The notes under the pieces: model-generated
What the model was told of the DNA's origin: nothing
What the model saw: the letters and a program-made list of their open reading frames with translations, nothing else
The model's database searches: none
Made by a program: the position numbers and the translations under genes
Part shown: one piece after another, positions 2,640 to 55,854 of the stretch
Numbering within the stretch: position 1 is the stretch's first letter
Layout: each line of letters begins with the position of its first letter
Source: an uncultured Alphaproteobacteria bacterium
GTDB lineage: Bacteria; Bacteroidota; Ignavibacteria; OLB7
Length of the DNA stretch: 64,000 nt
Assembly: GCA_964455525.1 (NCBI GenBank)
Contig: CAYVWR010000006.1
Coordinates: forward strand, 261,388-325,387
Direction of reading: 5' to 3'

Positions 2640-4109
2640 ATGACTATTGACGGTATTCCTGGCGAGGCCAAGCCACGCCGTCGCAGGCGCTGGTACTGGT
2701 ATTTCGGCATCTGCGTACTGATACTATGCGCCTGGCAGGTAACTGCCTGGCTTGCACCGGTGCCTGCCCCGCTGGCCTCGGCGGCAGCCGTCACCGACCA
2801 GGTATACGAGGCGGTCTATGATGATGCGATCATGGGCCGGGCCGAAAAACTCCCACGCGAGGTCAACATCCTTCTGGTTGGCCTTGACAATCGGATTTCC
2901 TCCACCGATAATCATGCCGACGCCATTCATCTTATCTCCATCCGTACCAAGGATTCTATCGGCGCCACCATCACCTCGATCCCGCGTGGCACCGAGGTAG
3001 AGGGCTTCGGCATCTCGGACGATCTATCCTTTATGGCCAATGTGCGAGCCTTGAAAGGGCGCAAGGCATTGACGAAGGCAGTAGCAAAGCTTACCAGGAA
3101 GAAAAAGATCGATTATTATGTCGAGGTTACCTTCAGCCAAGTGATGGGCGTGCTGGAGCTGCTCGGCTTCAAAGACCCCGCAACCGCTCTGCAATACCTC
3201 CGCCACCGCAAGACCTATGCGCTGGGCGATGTGCAGCGAAGCTACAATCAGGGGAAGTTTCTTCGCCACCAGGCAATCCGCCGGGGCGATCTGCTCACCG
3301 GCGCCAAAGGCGACATCCTTCTCCGTATGGGCCTTGGCATGGTTGATACCGATCTCGATATGGAGACCGCACAGGCACTGGTCTATCTGCTGAAAAACAA
3401 CGACGCGCTGACCGATTCGCGCATCGACGTTACAATGATGCCCAAGGTGAATCTTGCCCGGCTGGAGAAAGAGGCAGAGATACCTGACCCGGAACAGATC
3501 GGTGAGGTGGTCAACAAACTGGTCCGCAGAACCGGCGACGCGATCGACGATCTTGGACGCTATAATCCCTATCCCCGCCTGAAGGAGCTGGTAGGACGTG
3601 CCGCCGCACAGAAAAGCCCGAAGGCAACCGTGGCCGCGCTCCAGGTTACCTATGCACAAAAGGCATGGCTCCAGATTCAGGAACGTCCCCAACGTCGTGA
3701 AATTCGCGATCGCGTGGAGGATCTGCTCATCAAGGCGTATACCGATCTGAAGAAGCCGGACAAGGCAGAGGACGTACGGAAGTATATGGAAGAGGAACGG
3801 AAGGCATTTGCCGAAGCCGAACGGGAGCATCGGCGGTTCTCCTATGGACGCCGAGCCGTACCGGCACGGAGAGAAACGCTGAACCCGGAGGCAGCCGCCC
3901 GTGCAAAGAGCGATGATATCGGCCAGAAGCAGACCCATATCGAGCCGCAGGCACCAACGGCGCCCCCGGCCGAACCGCAGCAACAACCGGTTGTGGAGAC
4001 TGTGCCGGAAAAGGAGCTGACAAACCAGATCGGCCCCCACCGCGAAGAGGCAAAGCAGCAGAGCGATGGACCACAGGTCCATGATATCAAGGAGGATGGG
4101 AAACAGTAA
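2640..4109 (+). CDS. LytR-CpsA-Psr (LCP) family cell-envelope protein with an N-terminal transmembrane segment and a long charged low-complexity C-terminal tail
   Basis: N-terminal RRRRRWYWYFGICVLIL membrane anchor. LCP core motifs NILLVGLDNR...DAIHLISI...ITSIPRGTEV. The C-terminal ~190 aa is rich in K/E/R/Q/P. Confidence 0.7.
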   Translation: MTIDGIPGEAKPRRRRRWYWYFGICVLILCAWQVTAWLAPVPAPLASAAAVTDQVYEAVYDDAIMGRAEKLPREVNILLVGLDNRISSTDNHADAIHLISIRTKDSIGATITSIPRGTEVEGFGISDDLSFMANVRALKGRKALTKAVAKLTRKKKIDYYVEVTFSQVMGVLELLGFKDPATALQYLRHRKTYALGDVQRSYNQGKFLRHQAIRRGDLLTGAKGDILLRMGLGMVDTDLDMETAQALVYLLKNNDALTDSRIDVTMMPKVNLARLEKEAEIPDPEQIGEVVNKLVRRTGDAIDDLGRYNPYPRLKELVGRAAAQKSPKATVAALQVTYAQKAWLQIQERPQRREIRDRVEDLLIKAYTDLKKPDKAEDVRKYMEEERKAFAEAEREHRRFSYGRRAVPARRETLNPEAAARAKSDDIGQKQTHIEPQAPTAPPAEPQQQPVVETVPEKELTNQIGPHREEAKQQSDGPQVHDIKEDGKQ

Positions 4110-4253
4110 CCCCGCCCCCAACATAGAACAGAAGTATTCGTGCGTTAGCGCTTGAAAGAGCCAAGGACCCATCAAACGCACCGGGGCCGACGATCGTGGT
4201 GGATCATCGGCCCCTCTTTTTCTGCCGCAGCATACAAACCATGGCCCCGCTTC

Positions 4254-4427
4254 CTAGAGCCTGTTATGCACCGTTCAGCGTAGAAACGAGCTTGGAAATT
4301 TCCGCCAGACCTTTTGCGAGGCCGCCCGTCGATGATGATGATGATATGGATGTCGTCTGGCATGCTTTGGTCCAGGATCGTTGACTGTGAGCGGATTCCG
4401 ACAATTGAAGCTCATAACAGGCTCTAG
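4254..4427. repeat. Perfect 15-bp inverted repeat pair (CTAGAGCCTGTTATG ... CATAACAGGCTCTAG) separated by about 145 bp. The ~175-bp unit looks like a MITE-like element or a structured-RNA closing stem.
   Basis: Read directly from the sequence in the 500-bp intergenic region between the LCP gene and the downstream OM protein gene. Confidence 0.5.
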
Positions 4428-4605
4428 CATCCGACAACCTACCAGACAGATGTGTAAAGGAACGTGGAAATAAATCAGGGGTTTCCTCCCACGATGTATC
4501 TTTACGGGCCATTGCATCCCCCCTTACTCTGCCATCGGCTCGGTGGCCCTGTTGTGAAATGACGATCGCCCTGGGATCTCTCAATAATTTCAAGGATATC
4601 GAGGC

Positions 4606-5466
4606 ATGAAGAAGATTCTTCTACCACTTCTGCTGGTCCTCGCGGGCTCGGTTGCACTCGCCGATCCGCCGGATGAGGATGTTCATCGTCCGTACATACC
4701 AAGCCGCGGCCAGCTCTACACACAGTTCGATCTTGGATTGAACCTTACCTTTCTGGACGGCAACAACGAGTTCCGATCCCGAATTCCGGGAGAAGGCCCA
4801 ACGACCCTCTACCAGTCTGGCAATGGCCTGGCACCGCTGCTGAGCGCCACCATCGGCTACGAATTCAACCAGACCTTCGGGCTGGCGTTCCGTGCCGATT
4901 ATGATGTCCGCTCCGCCTCCAACTCGGGCGTGACCATCGACACCTGCCTCCTTCAGGATGTGTTCGGACAGATCACCCCCGTACCGATAGAGGTTGACAA
5001 GGACTATAGCGTCAGCATCAGCTATCTCTCCCTGTCGGCACTTGCCAAGCTCCGGTTCGACAACCTCTATCTTTTCCTCGGCCCGACCGTCTCGGTCCCG
5101 CTCTCCCGGGACGTCAAGCAGACCTTTCGGATTCTCGACAGCGGCACCTGCGCCTATTTCCCATTTACCACGGACTCCTCCAAGGAGATCACCGGCAGCC
5201 TGACAAGCGCCGAGAACATGAAGCAGCGGCTTTCCTTCAAGTTCGGCGCAGGATACATGATCCCTCTTACCAGGTCGGTCAGCCTGGTACCGCAACTGGC
5301 TTACGACCTGGGGCTTACCGATTCGTTTCAGAACGCGGAGATCAACACCCTGGCAAAGCCCGGCGAGACCGAGGAGACGACAACACTGCTGGTGCCGACC
5401 GTACTCAACCCGAAGATCCGCCTCAGCTCGTTGCAGGCCACCATCGGAATCCGTGTAAACCTCTAG
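4606..5466 (+). CDS. Secreted or outer-membrane hypothetical protein (signal peptide, beta-rich)
   Basis: N-terminal MKKILLPLLLVLAGSVALA signal peptide. Alternating hydrophobic beta-strand-like pattern. The opposite-strand ORF 4621..5802 is judged spurious. Confidence 0.5.
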   Translation: MKKILLPLLLVLAGSVALADPPDEDVHRPYIPSRGQLYTQFDLGLNLTFLDGNNEFRSRIPGEGPTTLYQSGNGLAPLLSATIGYEFNQTFGLAFRADYDVRSASNSGVTIDTCLLQDVFGQITPVPIEVDKDYSVSISYLSLSALAKLRFDNLYLFLGPTVSVPLSRDVKQTFRILDSGTCAYFPFTTDSSKEITGSLTSAENMKQRLSFKFGAGYMIPLTRSVSLVPQLAYDLGLTDSFQNAEINTLAKPGETEETTTLLVPTVLNPKIRLSSLQATIGIRVNL

Positions 5467-24535: not shown

Positions 24536-25807
24536 ATGTTTGAGATCGAACCATATCGAGAAGTACCAACCGACTTACCTGTTATTAAATCGGAGTACCA
24601 CGTTTTGCATTTCGATGATGAACCTATACTCTATTCTGGGAAGAATAGATATGGGGATATCGTACTTGGCTCCTCCGTTGATGAGGACTATGAAGGACGG
24701 ATTGAGCGTCATTATTGTGTGCCAGTAGACCTCGCTACATACTCGTCTTTCATCAATGGTAATATCAGTTACTATGATATCCTCTGTCAATCAAAGTCAA
24801 TATTCGTCGTTGACAGTGATTTCGATGGGAAGTCATTTCGTACGTACCTGCTACCTCTTGCTGATATCCCTAGCGATTATCTGCCAATGCCAGATTCTTT
24901 CTGTCCTCCCCAACCAGTATCTGAGTCTCTAGCACTATCATTATATGCAAGTCTTAAAGGAAAGCTAGCTGATCAGCACAAAGCCGTGCCATCAGAGCTA
25001 AGCCGGATACAACAGGCACTAGCAGACGTATTAGAAACCGCATTGAATAGCTTGCGGGAACTGACTCAACCCAATTTATATATTGCAGCATACTCTCCGT
25101 CAAGTTTCCGGATTCATTATGAAGTCCAGATGCCAAAACAACTTGACTTCGGCACTCAGGGTTACATCCGCTTCTATAATAAGCTTCTTCGCTTTTGCTT
25201 TAACAATCTGCCCACTGAGATGGCGAAGATTGTCGAGTTGACTCCTGAAATATCCTACAGGTTTGAAGAAATAGTGAATGAGTACAAAGACCTACATAGT
25301 ACAGTATGGGTTGAAAGTGGCAACAAGGAAGCATACTTTCGTGCGCAATTGATTGAGAATGTTGTTGAGATTGCGAACGAATTAAAAGATGCGTCTGATG
25401 CGATAGGTCAGCACTTCACGAATATCTCCATATTTGATGGGGAATCTGATGAAGCATCTAATGTCGTGGGAGTTATTGATGATAATTTTAGAGACGGTAT
25501 TGTTGAGGCTATTGAGATAGCTGGTAGTAAATATTCTAAATTTGAAGCCGATGCAACACCGCAGACGTACGAAATCCAAATTTATTCTTTTAATACTCAT
25601 TCAAGGAAGGGTAGCGCATACGTAATCGTCTCCAATGTTCATGGTGATCGAGAAGTTATTACGACTAGGATTACAGTTCTTGGTGATGAGATCTTAGAAG
25701 AAACGAAATACACAGAAAGCTTACATCACAAGAAAACCATTCAAATCCGGGCGACCGCACATCGAGTAAGGGGTAAGATTACTCGAATGGACATACTGTT
25801 TGATTAA
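24536..25807 (+). CDS. Hypothetical 423-aa protein, second gene of the island operon
   Basis: Long AT-rich ORF with no Walker, HKD or other recognisable catalytic motif. It is probably translationally coupled to the upstream ORF (TAAaATG). Confidence 0.5.
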   Translation: MFEIEPYREVPTDLPVIKSEYHVLHFDDEPILYSGKNRYGDIVLGSSVDEDYEGRIERHYCVPVDLATYSSFINGNISYYDILCQSKSIFVVDSDFDGKSFRTYLLPLADIPSDYLPMPDSFCPPQPVSESLALSLYASLKGKLADQHKAVPSELSRIQQALADVLETALNSLRELTQPNLYIAAYSPSSFRIHYEVQMPKQLDFGTQGYIRFYNKLLRFCFNNLPTEMAKIVELTPEISYRFEEIVNEYKDLHSTVWVESGNKEAYFRAQLIENVVEIANELKDASDAIGQHFTNISIFDGESDEASNVVGVIDDNFRDGIVEAIEIAGSKYSKFEADATPQTYEIQIYSFNTHSRKGSAYVIVSNVHGDREVITTRITVLGDEILEETKYTESLHHKKTIQIRATAHRVRGKITRMDILFD

Positions 25808-27293: not shown

Positions 27294-28607
27294 CTAGTCC
27301 ATGATGCGGCGCAGGAATGCCGGCTTATCGGCAGCCTGTTTCTGCTGCCGCAGTTCCTGGCGCTCATCGGCCTGTGGCTCCTCATCTGGACGTGCCTGCG
27401 GCTCCTCCTGACGGCGGGTAACATCATAGCCACCACGGTGGATGCCTGCGCCGCGCCGCATATATGCAGGCTCGTTATACTTCTCCAGATCCTCAAGCCC
27501 CACCGGCACATGATCGGCAACGGTATCGCGCGACTGGTTTGCGTACGGACGCGCCGCCTGCTGCTGCATGGGAATGCTCTGCGGCTGCGGTGCGGCTGCC
27601 GGAGCCTGTGCTGCGGCACGCTGTGGCGGAGCCTGGCGTACCTCCTTCGACTTGTTGAACCCTGTTGCGATGACCGTCACCATCATGGAATCGGCAAGGG
27701 TATCATCCAGCACAACGCCGAAGATGATATTTGCCTCGGCACCGACCGACTCATGGACGATCTTTACCGCTTCATCCACTTCCATCATGGTCAGATCGCT
27801 CGATGCCGCGATGTTGATAAGCACGCCTTCGGAGCCTGTAATGGAGATTCCCTCCAGCAGCGGCGAGCTGATCGCATTCTGTGCAGCCTGGGTGGCACGG
27901 CTCTCGCCAGCGGCGATTCCGGTTCCCATAAGCGCATCGCCCATGTTCTGCATCACCGTACGGACGTCGGCAAAATCGACGTTGACAAGACCGTGGCCGG
28001 TAATGATCTCGGCGATGCCACGGGTGGCATTATAGAGAACATCATCAACCTTATGAAACGCTTCCCTGAAGCCGGTCTTTTTATCGATGATCGAAAGCAG
28101 CTTCTGGTTTGGCACAACGATCAGCGTATCAACGTGCTCCTTCAGCTCCTTGATACCCAGATCGGCCTTGTCCTTTCGGGGCTTTCCCTCCCAATCGAAC
28201 GGACGCGTGACGATGCCGACAACGAGAGCGCCGAGTGAGCGTGCGATTTCCGCCACAACCGGAGCGCCCCCAGTGCCGGTACCACCACCCATGCCTGCGG
28301 TAACAAACACCATGTCGGTATTCGACAGAATCTGCGCCAATTCCTCACGATCTTCAACCACTGCATCGTGGCCGATCGATGGATTTGCACCAGCGCCGAG
28401 ACCACGCGTCAGTTCCTTCCCTACCTGGACCCGAAGCGGCGACTGATTTTTAGCAAGAGCCTGGAGGTCGGTATTAACCACGAGAAATTCGCAGCCTGAC
28501 AGGCCACGCTCAATCATGCTATTGACCGCGTTTCCTCCGCCGCCCCCGACTCCTACGATTTTGATTTTTGCTCCGTGATGCTCCACGGAACGATCGAGCT
28601 CGATCAT
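27294..28607 (-). CDS. ftsZ: Cell division protein FtsZ
   Basis: GVGGGGGNAVNSM and GGGTGTG tubulin signature, and a C-terminal linker plus conserved tail. Confidence 0.97.
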   Translation of the reverse strand: MIELDRSVEHHGAKIKIVGVGGGGGNAVNSMIERGLSGCEFLVVNTDLQALAKNQSPLRVQVGKELTRGLGAGANPSIGHDAVVEDREELAQILSNTDMVFVTAGMGGGTGTGGAPVVAEIARSLGALVVGIVTRPFDWEGKPRKDKADLGIKELKEHVDTLIVVPNQKLLSIIDKKTGFREAFHKVDDVLYNATRGIAEIITGHGLVNVDFADVRTVMQNMGDALMGTGIAAGESRATQAAQNAISSPLLEGISITGSEGVLINIAASSDLTMMEVDEAVKIVHESVGAEANIIFGVVLDDTLADSMMVTVIATGFNKSKEVRQAPPQRAAAQAPAAAPQPQSIPMQQQAARPYANQSRDTVADHVPVGLEDLEKYNEPAYMRRGAGIHRGGYDVTRRQEEPQARPDEEPQADERQELRQQKQAADKPAFLRRIMD

Positions 28608-45296: not shown

Positions 45297-46256
45297 TTAT
45301 CGCTGCCGGGATTGCCGCGTATCAATCACACGTTCGGCCACCCTGAGCTTTGCGCTTCGTGCTCTCGGATTGCGCTCCACCTCTTCATCGGAAGGGGAGG
45401 CAGGCTTGCGCGTCACCAGCTTCAACCGTTGCTGCTTCTCACAGACACAGATCGGAAGCTGCGGAGGGCAGATACAAAAACGCTCCTCCTGGCGAAAATG
45501 ATCCTTGACGATCCGGTCCTCCAACGAGTGATAGGTCAGCACCGCAAATCGTCCCCCGGGCCGAAGTAGCGGAACAAAACACTCGAGTGCCGCACGCAAC
45601 TCCCCAAGCTCATCGTTCACCTCGATCCGAAGCGCCTGAAAGACACGCGAAAGGGTCTTCATGACAAATCGCTCCGGGATCACCGACTCGATGACCCTTC
45701 GCAGATCGCCGGTCGTCTCAATCGGGTGCCCGAACCGTGCATCGGCAATCGCCCTGGCAATCTTCCATGCGGCAGGCTCCTCGCCATACGTGCGGAGAAT
45801 CGTGGCAATCTGCTCCGGGGATTCCCTGTTCACCAGTTCGCGTGCTGAACGGCGTCCCGACTCCTGACGGAACCGCATATCGAGCGGCATATCGAAACGG
45901 TAGCTCAGGCCGATCTGATCGGAGTCGATCTGCCGACTGGAAACGCCCAGATCGAGCAGCACACCGGCCAGCATCACCCCCTCCTCGCTCAACATTGCGC
46001 ACGCCTCGCTGAAGTATGCCTGCCGTACGATCAGGCTCCCCCCCAGCTCCTGGCCGAAACGCTCTGCCGCGTTGGCAATGGCACCAGGATCGGCATCGAA
46101 TGCATAGACGCGCCCCTGGCCGCGCACCCGTTCCAGAATCGCTGCCGTATGCCCTCCTCCACCGAGAGTGCCATCGGCATAGTTTCCTGATGGGTCGATC
46201 GCGAGAGCACTAAGCACCTCATCCAGCATCACCGGAATATGATAGGCCGTGCTCAT
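45297..46256 (-). CDS. rsmH: 16S rRNA m4C1402 methyltransferase RsmH (MraW)
   Basis: HIPVMLDEVL and DGTLGGGGH SAM-methyltransferase motifs. Confidence 0.93.
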   Translation of the reverse strand: MSTAYHIPVMLDEVLSALAIDPSGNYADGTLGGGGHTAAILERVRGQGRVYAFDADPGAIANAAERFGQELGGSLIVRQAYFSEACAMLSEEGVMLAGVLLDLGVSSRQIDSDQIGLSYRFDMPLDMRFRQESGRRSARELVNRESPEQIATILRTYGEEPAAWKIARAIADARFGHPIETTGDLRRVIESVIPERFVMKTLSRVFQALRIEVNDELGELRAALECFVPLLRPGGRFAVLTYHSLEDRIVKDHFRQEERFCICPPQLPICVCEKQQRLKLVTRKPASPSDEEVERNPRARSAKLRVAERVIDTRQSRQR

Positions 46257-46258
46257 GG

Positions 46259-46717
46259 TTACTCCCGCCTCAGCCCCATCACCGACTCGGCGATGGTAGC
46301 ATACGATTGGGTCTTCTTGCTCAGATAGCTTTCAAAGATCTTTGGATCCCATAGTTCCAAATGGTCCATCGCCCCGAGGATAAGCGTCTCCTTCTCGATC
46401 TTCGTGAAGTCGATCAGCGATTTCGGAAGCATGATCCGGAATTGTTTGTCAAGTGTTACTTCATCTGCCCAGTACAGAAGCGTGCGAAGGAAAAAGCGTT
46501 CAAGCTCGTTGAACTGATTGAGCTGCTTCAGGTTCTCCTCGAACTTCTTCCACTCGTCGAGCGGGTATGCATAGATACATGGATCATCATCCGGGCCGCG
46601 TGTGATAACGAACGTATCGTTCGCCTCCGGCGCCATGCTCTTGCGCATCTTCGCCGGGATGTTCACACGACCCTTGGAATCGACCGAGTATATTTCTCTA
46701 CCCTTGAAGAATGACAT
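46259..46717 (-). CDS. mraZ: Transcriptional regulator MraZ
   Basis: Two DxxxR-like SpoVT-AbrB repeats (VDSKGRVNIP, LDKQFRIMLP). Start at the internal ATG, MSFFKG. Confidence 0.9.
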   Translation of the reverse strand: MSFFKGREIYSVDSKGRVNIPAKMRKSMAPEANDTFVITRGPDDDPCIYAYPLDEWKKFEENLKQLNQFNELERFFLRTLLYWADEVTLDKQFRIMLPKSLIDFTKIEKETLILGAMDHLELWDPKIFESYLSKKTQSYATIAESVMGLRRE

Positions 46718-46996
46718 CGTTTCGCCTATCGAGGGAGGGCCTACCAAAATCCCCCACTTTTACCCACTCACAGCCGCAAATTAGGGTTTGGCCCATCGCG
46801 CGCGCCAGCACGGCGAAAGTTCTCCCCCGAAATCTTCATAGAATCGAATAAAACGCGATTTCACGCAAATTTGGCCGAATCGGCAATGCTGTATGTGCGT
46901 TATATCTTGTTTACAGCAAACAGGAAGTTTACTGAAAATATTTTCAGGTATAAATGTCAACCCTTTCAGATGCACGGAATGCGGGGTTTTCAGGGA

Positions 46997-47040
46997 GATG
47001 TGGTAAGGGAATCGAAGAGGGTGTGGGGGATTTGTGGGGA
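46997..47040. promoter_or_regulatory. Putative MraZ operator: three GTGG(G) direct repeats at about 11- and 23-bp spacing upstream of mraZ
   Basis: aTGTGGtaagggaatcgaagagggTGTGGGGGatttGTGGGGaatg, about 280 bp upstream of the mraZ start. MraZ is known to bind GTGGG direct repeats in its own promoter. Confidence 0.35.
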
Positions 47041-47222
47041 ATGCGATCACATCGCAACGGCAGCCCTGTGGATGGAGGGACGCTCTAACCGTACGGCAGG
47101 CAACTGCCAGCGGGGCGCCGCGGCACGATGCATGACAAGGGCATCGCTCCTCTGCCGCTCATTCCCCTTTGGTGCCGATACACCGGATGCCCCTCCGGGC
47201 CAGCCTGGCACGAAGGCCATGT

Positions 47223-47260
47223 GATGGCCATCGTAGGATGGCCATCGTAGGATGGCCATC
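47223..47260. repeat. Array of three copies of the 10-bp perfect palindrome GATGGCCATC with 4-bp spacers (14-bp period), abutting the dnaX stop codon
   Basis: gtGATGGCCATCgtagGATGGCCATCgtagGATGGCCATCtta, read directly from the sequence. Confidence 0.6.
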
Positions 47261-54554: not shown

Positions 54555-55308
54555 CGCCTCTCTTCCTCATCTTTTCAGATTATTATCATCGAGTCGTCAT
54601 GATTGGGAACCATCAGGAGCCTCTATCCGATGTATGGCCACCACAGATGCAGTCCCAGACATTATACACGTCCTACGATCCTATACAGGATGGCCTGAGC
54701 CGGGAGGAGCCTACTCGGCATTATTCAGCCTCCTTCGAGCCAGACCTTCATCCCTTTGAACCATTCCCGCCAGCATTCATCTGTTTCTCTCAAACCTGAA
54801 TACGGTATACAGGGTAGCAGAAACACCAACCATGAACTCCGTTGCGTTTCGCGGCCGTGCCACAAGCTTCTCATCGCGCATGAAAAGGGTCGGCAGCACG
54901 CTTTATAACATGCGATCGAGCATTGGATATAGGCTGCCAAATTAGCCGATGGCAGCGCGAGGGTTGTCACCCGAACGGGTGAGTGCTGGGGGTGATTTTA
55001 CGAGAGGAAACAAGAGGGTACCGGCAGAATACGATGCGGAACGTTCGCATACCTGTGCCAAACGTCCATGAAATGTGCACCGAAAAAAGCTCCGCGAACT
55101 GCCATGACATGTTTTGTGGTTCATCCGCATGATGATAACTTGCCCCTTCCAAAAGCAACTATCACCTATCGACTATTGGAATCTACAGGTTGATTCTGCC
55201 CAAGGCCTGGCAGCCACAGGAGCACGCTATGGGCAAACAGCCGTTAACCGATCAGAATTACGTATCAATAATAGCGTCCATTCCATTCTTCCATCATCCA
55301 GTGCTTCC

Positions 55309-55854
55309 ATGAAAAACGTTATCTCCGGCCTGTTCGTTGTGATAGCCGTATTGTTCGCTGCATGTTCTCCATCAACCGATCCAGGAACCACCCCCGACCC
55401 CATCACCAATCCAAAGCCCGACCCTAATCCAGATCCGAAACCAGATCCAGATCCGAAGCCAGATCCAAAACCAGATGGCCCATCAATTAGAAAGCCCTAT
55501 GATGCAGTCCGAAATGGCGTTCAGATCACCGGCATTTATTTCCATCAGGATTCCAATTTTATCGTTCACAATCTCCGGGATGAATGGATCATTCTGGAAT
55601 CGGACATGCCGATCCCGACAAAGGGATGGACGCTTGATGCATCCGATAACCAGCGTTTCCAGCTCCCCGATACGCTCCATAAAAAACTCTATATCTATAC
55701 GCTCAACGGCCCCGGTTATGAAAATGACACCATTATGACATTGAAGCGAAAGGCATCAGCATGGATCTGGAACAACACCGAACCTGATACCGGAAAGGTA
55801 TTCAATGCGCTCGGGGAGCTGATCGATTCCATTACATACAAGGCGAAGCGCTAA
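55309..55854 (+). CDS. Lipoprotein with a (PDPKPD)n linker and a lamin-tail-like (LTD) beta domain
   Basis: Start at the internal ATG (residue 66). Signal peptide plus lipobox FAAC. Repeat NPKPDPNPDPKPDPDPKPDPKPDGP. The C-terminus EWIILESDMPIPTKGWTLDASDNQRFQLP resembles LTD domains. Confidence 0.55.
   Translation: MKNVISGLFVVIAVLFAACSPSTDPGTTPDPITNPKPDPNPDPKPDPDPKPDPKPDGPSIRKPYDAVRNGVQITGIYFHQDSNFIVHNLRDEWIILESDMPIPTKGWTLDASDNQRFQLPDTLHKKLYIYTLNGPGYENDTIMTLKRKASAWIWNNTEPDTGKVFNALGELIDSITYKAKR

What the first reader, a model, noticed from the sequence alone, without database searches (positions are those of the whole stretch)
4254..4427. Perfect 15-bp inverted repeats about 145 bp apart in a 500-bp intergenic region: MITE-like element or closing stem of a ~175-nt structured RNA
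CTAGAGCCTGTTATG (about 4254-4268) and its exact reverse complement CATAACAGGCTCTAG (about 4413-4427) flank about 145 bp of non-coding sequence upstream of an OM protein gene. A perfect 15-bp match is very unlikely by chance in 500 bp. Possible explanations are the terminal inverted repeats of a miniature transposable element, a long closing helix of an ncRNA (6S-like RNAs have such extended closing stems), or a regulatory DNA palindrome pair.
Basis: seen in the sequence. Interest (0 to 1): 0.5.

Follow-up and report, generated by a model that had tools for sequence, protein, structure and literature searches.

The report
IS5-family MITE inserted upstream of OMP gene
The two perfect 15-bp inverted repeats are the ends of a 168-bp non-coding miniature transposon (MITE) that sits at a CTAG site between two cell-envelope genes; it is an ordinary piece of selfish DNA and shows none of the marks of a structured RNA or a genetic switch.

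Summary
In detail: CTAGAGCCTGTTATG (4254-4268) and its exact reverse complement (4413-4427) lie 144 nt apart in the 496-bp spacer between a LytR-CpsA-Psr-like gene and an OMP beta-barrel gene. The element proper is 4257-4424 (168 bp), flanked by a duplicated TA inside a CTAG target. A two-arm search of public metagenomes found 98 distinct insertion sites. Of these, 89 have TA on both sides, the flanks are otherwise unrelated, and the interiors fall into about 40 unrelated subfamilies. Six further terminal bases that the search did not specify are conserved, giving an 18-nt TIR, GAGCCTGTTATGMACTTT. The autonomous partners are short IS5-family insertion sequences: an 858-bp IS in Burkholderia glumae whose TIR matches 17 of 18 bases and has TA flanks, a truncated full-length IS with the exact terminus in a MITE-rich metagenome, and a 390-bp deletion intermediate. 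Rfam gives no match, the interior is not conserved, no flipped orientation was seen, and no recombinase or transposase gene was found nearby. The window copy is single in 64 kb and has slightly degenerate subterminal bases, and it lies upstream of the likely OMP promoter, so it is probably a neutral relic. Side observation: subfamily lengths cluster with a period of about 10.5 bp.

The parts
4254..4427 (.). Whole insertion footprint: C-TA-[element]-TA-G, i.e. a CTAG target with its central TA duplicated
   Evidence: Family-wide flank statistics are: TA on both sides at 89 of 98 sites; position -3 is C in 72 of 95; position +3 is G in 74 of 98; positions beyond +/-3 look random.
4255..4256 (.). 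Left copy of the TA target-site duplication
4257..4424 (.). MITE body (168 bp), non-coding. The interior 4275-4406 is unrelated to any other copy or to the IS ends.
   Evidence: Only short spurious ORFs overlap it. There is no transposase homologue in the window.
4257..4274 (+). Left terminal inverted repeat, GAGCCTGTTATGCACCGT. It matches the family consensus GAGCCTGTTATGMACTTT at 16 of 18 positions.
4407..4424 (-). Right terminal inverted repeat, read on the minus strand as GAGCCTGTTATGAGCTTC. It matches the consensus at 16 of 18 positions and the 5' terminus of the autonomous IS in L113 at 17 of 18.
4425..4426 (.). Right copy of the TA target-site duplication
4183..4222 (+). Context, not part of the element: terminator-like hairpin GGGGCCGACGATC/GATCATCGGCCCC plus a T-run after the LytR-like gene, conserved in syntenic relatives. 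The MITE lies about 33 bp downstream of it.
   Evidence: I3; conserved columns
4606..5466 (+). Context, not part of the element: OMP beta-barrel gene, the first gene of the OMP / PD40-OmpA / TPR cluster. Its ATG is 179 bp downstream of the insertion footprint (181 bp from the element's last base).

Best explanation
[quoted passage not shown] Its two ends are the binding and cleavage sites of a short (about 260 aa) DDE transposase with the DUF4096 + DDE_Tnp_1 architecture (NCBIfam NF033580), which is supplied in trans by a full-length IS of about 860 bp with the same termini. The transposase integrates the element at the TA of a preferred 5'-CTAG-3' target with a 2-nt stagger, and repair of the stagger duplicates the TA; that is why the visible repeat is 15 nt (C+TA+12) rather than 12. 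Shown: the termini, the TA duplication, the CTAG preference, the many independent insertion sites, and autonomous and intermediate forms with the same ends. Inferred: the cut-and-paste chemistry and trans-mobilisation, from what is established for IS5-family DDE transposases. This copy landed in the spacer between the terminator of the LytR-like gene and the probable promoter of the OMP operon. It carries no recognisable promoter or gene, shows slight decay of otherwise conserved subterminal TIR positions, and has no transposase gene within 64 kb. It is therefore most likely a neutral, possibly immobile, relic fixed in this Kapabacteria-like lineage.
For: (1): the pattern GAGCCTGTTATG-N(130-160)-CATAACAGGCTC (24 specified bases) hits 111 metagenome stretches; one search gives 1 viral-collection contig. 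(2): these reduce to 98 distinct sites; 89 have TA on both sides; C is favoured at -3 and G at +3; flanks beyond that look random; the same interior occurs in both orientations at different loci; one contig carries two copies (L115 and L155). (3): positions 13-18, not specified in the search, are conserved across 196 ends (A14 in 193, C15 in 187, T16 in 182). (4): Burkholderia glumae plasmid bglu_3p carries an 858-bp IS, TA-GAGCGTGTTATGCACTTT...AAAGTGCATAACACGCTC-TA, encoding a 265-aa transposase that scores 196 bits on NF033580 transpos_IS5_3 and hits Pfam DUF4096 and DDE_Tnp_1. (5): at L113:6709 the exact arm is followed 51 nt later by MDRKPYPSDITDDEWVFIAPYLTLM (76% identical to the B. glumae transposase N-terminus) before the contig ends; L107 and L182 hold a 390-bp element with near-identical TIRs and a remnant of the transposase C-terminus (70% identity); several contigs end inside a copy, as assemblies do at repeats. 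(6): syntenic relatives lack the arms; excising 4257-4426 in silico leaves a 326-bp spacer (relatives have 306, 307 and 421 bp) that aligns collinearly with L198 across the junction. (7): no Rfam family, no tRNA, and no promoter motif inside the element.
Against: Copy number in the source genome is unknown. Only one copy lies in the 64-kb window, and the k=31 Logan contigs run straight through it, which argues against many identical copies in that genome. The interior of the window copy matches no other member and no IS end, so membership rests on the 12 perfect + 4 of 6 subterminal bases in each arm and on the TA/CTAG footprint. No exact empty site could be shown because the nearest relatives are too diverged. 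No transposase gene was found in the window. I cannot tell whether the element arrived as a MITE or as a full-length IS that later lost its interior in place. The IS5 subgroup (IS427, IS1031 or ISL2-like) is not resolved.
Confidence: 0.9

Rival explanations
1. The element is a MITE, but one mobilised by an IS630/Tc1-mariner transposase rather than an IS5-family one. The TA duplication in a CTAG target is the classic IS630 signature.
For: TA target duplication and C-TA-G preference. From memory, IS630 inserts at CTAG and duplicates TA; ISY100 of the same family also targets TA (abstract of PMC2170065, listed).
Against: Every coding relative found with these termini is IS5-type: the B. glumae IS scores 196 bits on NF033580 and has DDE_Tnp_1 and DUF4096, as do the L113 N-terminus and the L107 remnant. 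No IS630-type gene was seen next to any arm. The IS5/PIF-Harbinger superfamily is documented to produce TSDs of 0, 2 or 3 bp (PMC12730594).
Confidence: 0.04
2. The repeats form an invertible DNA switch (inverton): a site-specific recombinase flips the 144-bp segment between them to turn the downstream OMP operon on or off.
For: The geometry is typical of Bacteroidota invertons (from memory): short inverted repeats flanking about 150-200 bp upstream of an outer-membrane gene cluster.
Against: All three fetched loci (L001-L003, from two sequencing runs) have the same orientation and identical sequence. No recombinase is among the ten ORFs tested between 17 and 13996. No promoter motif lies inside the segment. 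The same termini occur at 98 unrelated loci with TA duplications, which an inverton does not explain. Syntenic relatives lack the repeats.
Confidence: 0.02
3. The region encodes a structured non-coding RNA of about 175 nt (6S-like or novel), and the 15-bp repeats form its closing stem.
For: The + strand folds to -64.7 kcal/mol with z = -3.4 against shuffles.
Against: The z-score is driven by the perfect terminal stem, and the minus strand gives z = -1.9. There is no Rfam hit even at E <= 10 apart from noise, and none at gathering score in the whole window. Interiors of family members are unrelated, forming about 40 subfamilies, so no conserved fold exists. Copies occur in either orientation in arbitrary contexts with TA duplications. 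Orthologous spacers in relatives lack the element.
Confidence: 0.02
4. The two repeats are a pair of operator sites for a DNA-looping regulator of the OMP operon.
For: Two identical sites lie 159 bp apart centre to centre, upstream of an operon.
Against: The sites are not conserved in any syntenic relative, although the terminator and the promoter-proximal blocks are. Each site is non-palindromic. The identical sequence at 98 unrelated loci is explained by transposition.
Confidence: 0.01

Closest known systems
IS5-family insertion sequence on Burkholderia glumae BGR1 plasmid bglu_3p (NC_012720.2 about 54747-55604; transposase WP_012732849.1)
   Same: The 18-nt terminus matches the MITE consensus at 17 of 18 positions (GAGCGTGTTATGCACTTT against GAGCCTGTTATGCACTTT), and it has TA on both flanks.
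   Different: It is 858 bp and autonomous, encoding a 265-aa DDE transposase, and its host is a betaproteobacterium. The window element is 168 bp, non-coding, and sits in a Kapabacteria-like genome.
Bacterial MITEs with TA duplications derived from IS630/Tc1-mariner elements (e.g. Neisseria Correia elements, cyanobacterial Nezha; recalled from memory)
   Same: Size class (about 100-200 bp), TIRs, TA target duplication, intergenic location, and possible effects on neighbouring genes.
   Different: The termini are unrelated in sequence, and the coding partners found here are IS5-type, not IS630-type.
Tourist-type MITEs of the eukaryotic PIF/Harbinger superfamily, the eukaryotic relatives of the IS5 family (PMC12730594)
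   Same: Same transposase superfamily (PHIS/IS5). From memory, the G(G/A)GCCTGTT-like TIR start resembles Tourist termini. A TA-containing short TSD is shared.
   Different: Canonical Harbinger elements make 3-bp TSDs and need a second Myb-like protein (from memory). This element is bacterial with a 2-bp TA duplication.
Invertible promoters (invertons) of Bacteroidota
   Same: Short inverted repeats bracketing about 150 bp upstream of surface or outer-membrane genes.
   Different: No recombinase was found, no second orientation, and no internal promoter; the repeats are dispersed at unrelated loci.

Membership tests
MITE (miniature inverted-repeat transposable element) | Short length (tens to a few hundred bp) with no coding capacity | tested here: met
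   168 bp. Only spurious short ORFs overlap it, and tblastn finds no transposase similarity.
MITE (miniature inverted-repeat transposable element) | Terminal inverted repeats | tested here: met
   12 perfect bases and 16 of 18 to the family consensus in each arm.
MITE (miniature inverted-repeat transposable element) | Target-site duplication flanking the TIRs | tested here: met
   TA at 4255-4256 and 4425-4426; 89 of 98 family sites have TA on both sides.
MITE (miniature inverted-repeat transposable element) | Multiple copies at unrelated sites | tested here: met
   The family has 98 distinct sites with unrelated flanks, two of them on one contig. Within the source organism this could not be tested: there is one copy in 64 kb, and the whole genome was not available.
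MITE (miniature inverted-repeat transposable element) | An autonomous element sharing the termini | tested here: met
   The B. glumae IS (17 of 18), the exact arm plus transposase N-terminus at L113:6709, and the 390-bp deletion intermediate in L107/L182.
MITE (miniature inverted-repeat transposable element) | Presence/absence polymorphism (empty site) at this locus | tested here: inconclusive
   Same-species assemblies all carry it. Relatives at 62-67% OMP identity lack it, and the excised spacer aligns collinearly, but divergence prevents defining an exact empty site.
IS5 family (short DUF4096 + DDE_Tnp_1 transposases; NF033580) | The partner encodes a DDE_Tnp_1-type transposase of the IS5 family | tested here: met
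   NF033580 at 196 bits (cut-off 110); PF01609 and PF13340; homologous fragments next to exact arms.
IS5 family (short DUF4096 + DDE_Tnp_1 transposases; NF033580) | Termini starting GA/GG and a short TSD of 2-4 bp (ISfinder description, from memory; 0, 2 or 3 bp for the superfamily in PMC12730594) | tested here: met
   The termini start with GAG and the TSD is a 2-bp TA.
IS5 family (short DUF4096 + DDE_Tnp_1 transposases; NF033580) | Assignment to a named subgroup (IS427, IS1031 or ISL2) | not testable with these tools
IS630/Tc1-mariner-derived MITE | TA duplication, often in a CTAG target | tested here: met
IS630/Tc1-mariner-derived MITE | An autonomous partner encoding an IS630-type transposase with the same TIRs | tested here: not met
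   All coding partners found are IS5-type.
Inverton (invertible promoter) | Both orientations of the segment present in a population | tested here: not met
   The three fetched loci (L001-L003, from two sequencing runs) have identical orientation. Raw reads were not examined.
Inverton (invertible promoter) | A cognate site-specific recombinase nearby and a promoter inside the segment | tested here: not met
   No recombinase among the ten ORFs tested between 17 and 13996; no sigma-70-like or Bacteroidota-type motif inside 4257-4424.
6S RNA or other Rfam structured RNA | A match to a covariance model, or a conserved structure with covariation among homologues | tested here: not met
   No hit better than E = 3 and none at gathering score. 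Family interiors are unrelated, so there is no common fold.

The most novel reading that the evidence does not exclude
The lengths of independent subfamilies of this MITE family, which have unrelated interiors, cluster at about 161, 171 and 181 bp, a period of about 10.25-10.5 bp. If real, this would be population-level evidence from natural elements that very short transposons are selected for the helical phase between their two ends. The two TIRs would have to face the transposase dimer correctly when about 150 bp of stiff DNA is looped into a synaptic complex. As far as I recall, this constraint has been shown only in vitro, for IS50/Tn5. The window copy, at 168 bp, is off-phase and has decayed subterminal bases, which fits an immobile relic.
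Probability: 0.4. Interest if true: 0.5.

Novelty: new member of a known kind. Interest (0 to 1): 0.22.

Why it matters
For this locus it matters little. The repeat is explained as selfish DNA and should not be annotated as an RNA gene, a switch or an operator. Two points are worth recording. First, a widespread and apparently undescribed IS5-derived MITE family is defined by the 18-nt terminus GAGCCTGTTATGMACTTT and TA-in-CTAG insertion; it occurs in contigs with G+C from 43 to 71%, and a literature search for the terminus string returned only chance hits. That terminus is a useful mask and annotation key for intergenic "structured RNA" screens in environmental genomes. Second, the apparent ~10.5-bp quantisation of element length gives a cheap, testable handle on the mechanics of transpososome assembly on short DNA.

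Tried and rejected
(a) Rfam at a permissive E-value on 3900-4900 and at gathering score on the whole window found nothing meaningful. (b) Folding either strand gives a significant z-score only on the + strand, and it is explained by the perfect terminal stem. (c) Same-species assemblies from Logan were checked for a flipped interior or an empty site; they are identical. (d) The genome-contig scan with the PD40/OmpA neighbour found relatives no closer than 60% aa identity, with no alignable spacer DNA and no analogous inverted repeat. (e) A literature search for the terminus string gave only chance primer matches. (f) Plasmid blastn with the 5' end of the L113 IS found no match. (g) Alignments of the window interior to IS ends, the 390-bp intermediate and other subfamilies showed no similarity beyond the TIRs. 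(h) Reading the flanks as a 4-bp CTAG or a 3-bp TNA duplication was rejected, because left and right flanks such as TTA...TAG or CTA...TAA are common and only the central TA is a direct repeat. (i) My initial IS630 hypothesis was dropped once IS5-type partners turned up. (j) The extra 12-mer arm with one mismatch at 27832 and the 3-mismatch site at 25008 are within chance expectation and have no partner arm.

Full report
OBSERVATION. The sequence shows CTAGAGCCTGTTATG at 4254-4268 and its exact reverse complement at 4413-4427, with 144 nt between them. They lie in the 496-bp spacer (4110-4605) between a LytR_cpsA_psr-like gene (2640-4109, +) and an OMP beta-barrel gene (4606-5466, +). That gene is followed by a PD40/OmpA gene, a large TPR gene, and TonB-related genes. 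By my arithmetic, a perfect 15-mer inverted pair has a probability of about 1e-4 in 500 bp. In the whole window it is the only perfect inverted repeat of 15 nt or more whose arms are widely spaced.

The unit is single-copy in the 64-kb window. Rfam gives only noise at E > 3, and nothing in the whole window reaches a gathering score. There are no tRNAs. The + strand folds better than shuffles (z = -3.4), but this is driven by the terminal stem; the minus strand gives z = -1.9. I added a fourth hypothesis, an invertible promoter, because the geometry and the position upstream of an outer-membrane operon resemble Bacteroidota invertons. Assemblies of the same species from two sequencing runs have an identical spacer in the same orientation. 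None of the ten ORFs tested between 17 and 13996 is a recombinase. No sigma-70-like or TAnnTTTG-type motif lies inside the segment.

THE DECISIVE RESULT. The arms begin and end with C-TA-G, which suggested a TA duplication. I therefore searched the metagenome collection for the two 12-nt cores separated by 130-160 nt (24 specified bases). This returned 111 stretches and one contig of the viral collection. After removing loci assembled more than once, 98 distinct insertion sites remain:
- 89 have TA on both sides.
- Position -3 is C in 72 of 95 sites, and position +3 is G in 74 of 98.
- Positions beyond +/-3 have unbiased composition, so the flanks are unrelated.
- The same interior appears in both orientations at different loci, and one contig holds two copies.
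- Several contigs end inside a further copy, as assemblies do at dispersed repeats.
Positions 13-18 were not specified in the search but are strongly conserved across 196 ends (A14 in 193, C15 in 187, T16 in 182). The real TIR is therefore 18 nt, GAGCCTGTTATGMACTTT. These unspecified features (TA flanks, extended TIR) rule out chance matches. The element in the window is thus 4257-4424 (168 bp), with TA duplications at 4255-4256 and 4425-4426 inside a CTAG target.

THE AUTONOMOUS PARTNER. I first suspected IS630/Tc1-mariner, which from memory duplicates TA in CTAG. The data point to the IS5 family instead.
- A blastn search of annotated plasmids with the terminus hit the ends of "IS5 family transposase" features in Burkholderia glumae.
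- On plasmid bglu_3p the complete element is 858 bp: TA-GAGCGTGTTATGCACTTT...AAAGTGCATAACACGCTC-TA. It matches the MITE TIR at 17 of 18 positions.
- It encodes a 265-aa protein that scores 196 bits on NF033580 (transpos_IS5_3) and carries DUF4096 + DDE_Tnp_1.
- Among the metagenome loci, L113:6709 has the exact arm followed 51 nt later by MDRKPYPSDITDDEWVFIAPYLTLM, 76% identical to the N-terminus of that transposase, before the contig ends. This is in the metagenome that holds the largest MITE subfamily.
- L107 and L182 carry a 390-bp element with near-identical TIRs, TA flanks and a remnant of the transposase C-terminus. It is an internal-deletion intermediate between the IS and the MITE.
- The literature confirms that the IS5/PIF-Harbinger superfamily includes the subgroups IS5, IS427, IS1031, IS903 and ISL2, and produces TSDs of 0, 2 or 3 bp (PMC12730594).
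I could not resolve the subgroup.

THE WINDOW COPY. Each arm deviates from the consensus at 2 of the 6 subterminal positions, including a G at position 14 of the right arm, where 193 of 196 ends have A. The right arm matches the 5' end of the L113 IS at 17 of 18 positions. The interior matches no other subfamily and no IS end. No transposase homologue lies in the window. The k=31 Logan contigs run through the element, which argues by inference against many identical copies in that genome.

Syntenic relatives keep the gene order and conserve the LytR terminator hairpin and the promoter-proximal blocks. Their OMP is 62-67% identical to the window's. They lack both arms, and their spacers are 306, 307 and 421 bp. 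Removing 4257-4426 in silico leaves 326 bp, which aligns collinearly with L198 across the junction. Divergence is too great to define an exact empty site. The element lies about 33 bp after the terminator's T-run and upstream of the only promoter-like motif (TATCTTTA at 4497). It is therefore most simply a neutral insertion between two transcription units.

MECHANISM. An IS5-family DDE transposase supplied in trans binds the 18-bp TIRs, excises the element and integrates it at the TA of a CTAG with a 2-nt stagger, and repair of the stagger duplicates the TA. Shown here: the termini, the duplication, the target preference, the dispersed copies and the coding partners. Inferred: the chemistry and the trans-mobilisation.

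COMPARISON AND NOVELTY. The element meets every testable defining feature of a MITE and of an IS5-family derivative. It fails the partner test for IS630-type MITEs and the tests for invertons and Rfam RNAs. A full-text search for the terminus found no description, so this appears to be an unnamed family. The kind of element, however, is entirely familiar: it is a new member of a known kind.

SIDE OBSERVATION. Subfamily lengths cluster at about 161, 171 and 181 bp. I took one median length per cluster, defining clusters from interiors only.
- With 38-42 clusters, the best period in a 5-15 bp scan is 10.25-10.5 bp, and p is about 0.001 after correcting for the scan.
- With very lax clustering (26 clusters), p = 0.04.
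- With clusters over-merged through the shared TIR (15 clusters), the result is not significant.
I found no paper linking MITE length to helical phase. The in-vitro precedent for IS50/Tn5 is from memory.

VERDICT. The repeat is real and non-random, and it is explained as an IS5-family MITE. Interest in the locus itself is low.

Noticed in passing
Loci L084-L195 (MITE family), not the window: Lengths of independent MITE subfamilies cluster at about 161, 171 and 181 bp. The Rayleigh test gives a best period of 10.25-10.5 bp, with p about 0.001 for 38-42 interior-defined clusters. Only three helical periods were sampled because of the search gap range.
   Followed up: partly
L107:3738-4127 and L182:234-623: A 390-bp element with TIRs GAGCCTGTCATGCACTT / AAGTGCATATCAGGCTC and CTA...TAG flanks retains a remnant of the transposase C-terminus, so it is an IS-to-MITE deletion intermediate. 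It sits 27 bp from a 161-bp MITE of the same family.
   Followed up: partly
window 4331-4345: A (GAT)5 trinucleotide microsatellite lies inside the MITE interior. It produces the runs of Ile, His or Asp in the spurious ORFs that overlap the element.
   Followed up: no
window 46002-47117: An imperfect 33-nt inverted repeat (76% complementary) has arms 1050 nt apart. It partly overlaps a stretch of about 1 kb (46257-47260) with no ORF of 180 aa or more. I did not examine it; it could be a decayed mobile element or a divergent gene.
   Followed up: no
L197 (Mycetohabitans endofungorum plasmid NZ_CP132742.1, about 173000), with 4-9 places per record in related replicons: Unannotated copies of the related terminus CTAGAGCGTGTTATGCACTTTG occur several times per replicon in Mycetohabitans, abutting annotated genes. 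They are probably unannotated IS or MITE ends of the same IS5 lineage.
   Followed up: no
window 1-64000: The nearest species representatives are Candidatus Kapaibacterium / Chlorobiota MAGs at only about 60% aa identity for the PD40/OmpA protein. The source therefore appears to be a Kapabacteria-like lineage with no close species-representative genome. No tRNA and no Rfam family occurs in the 64 kb.
   Followed up: partly
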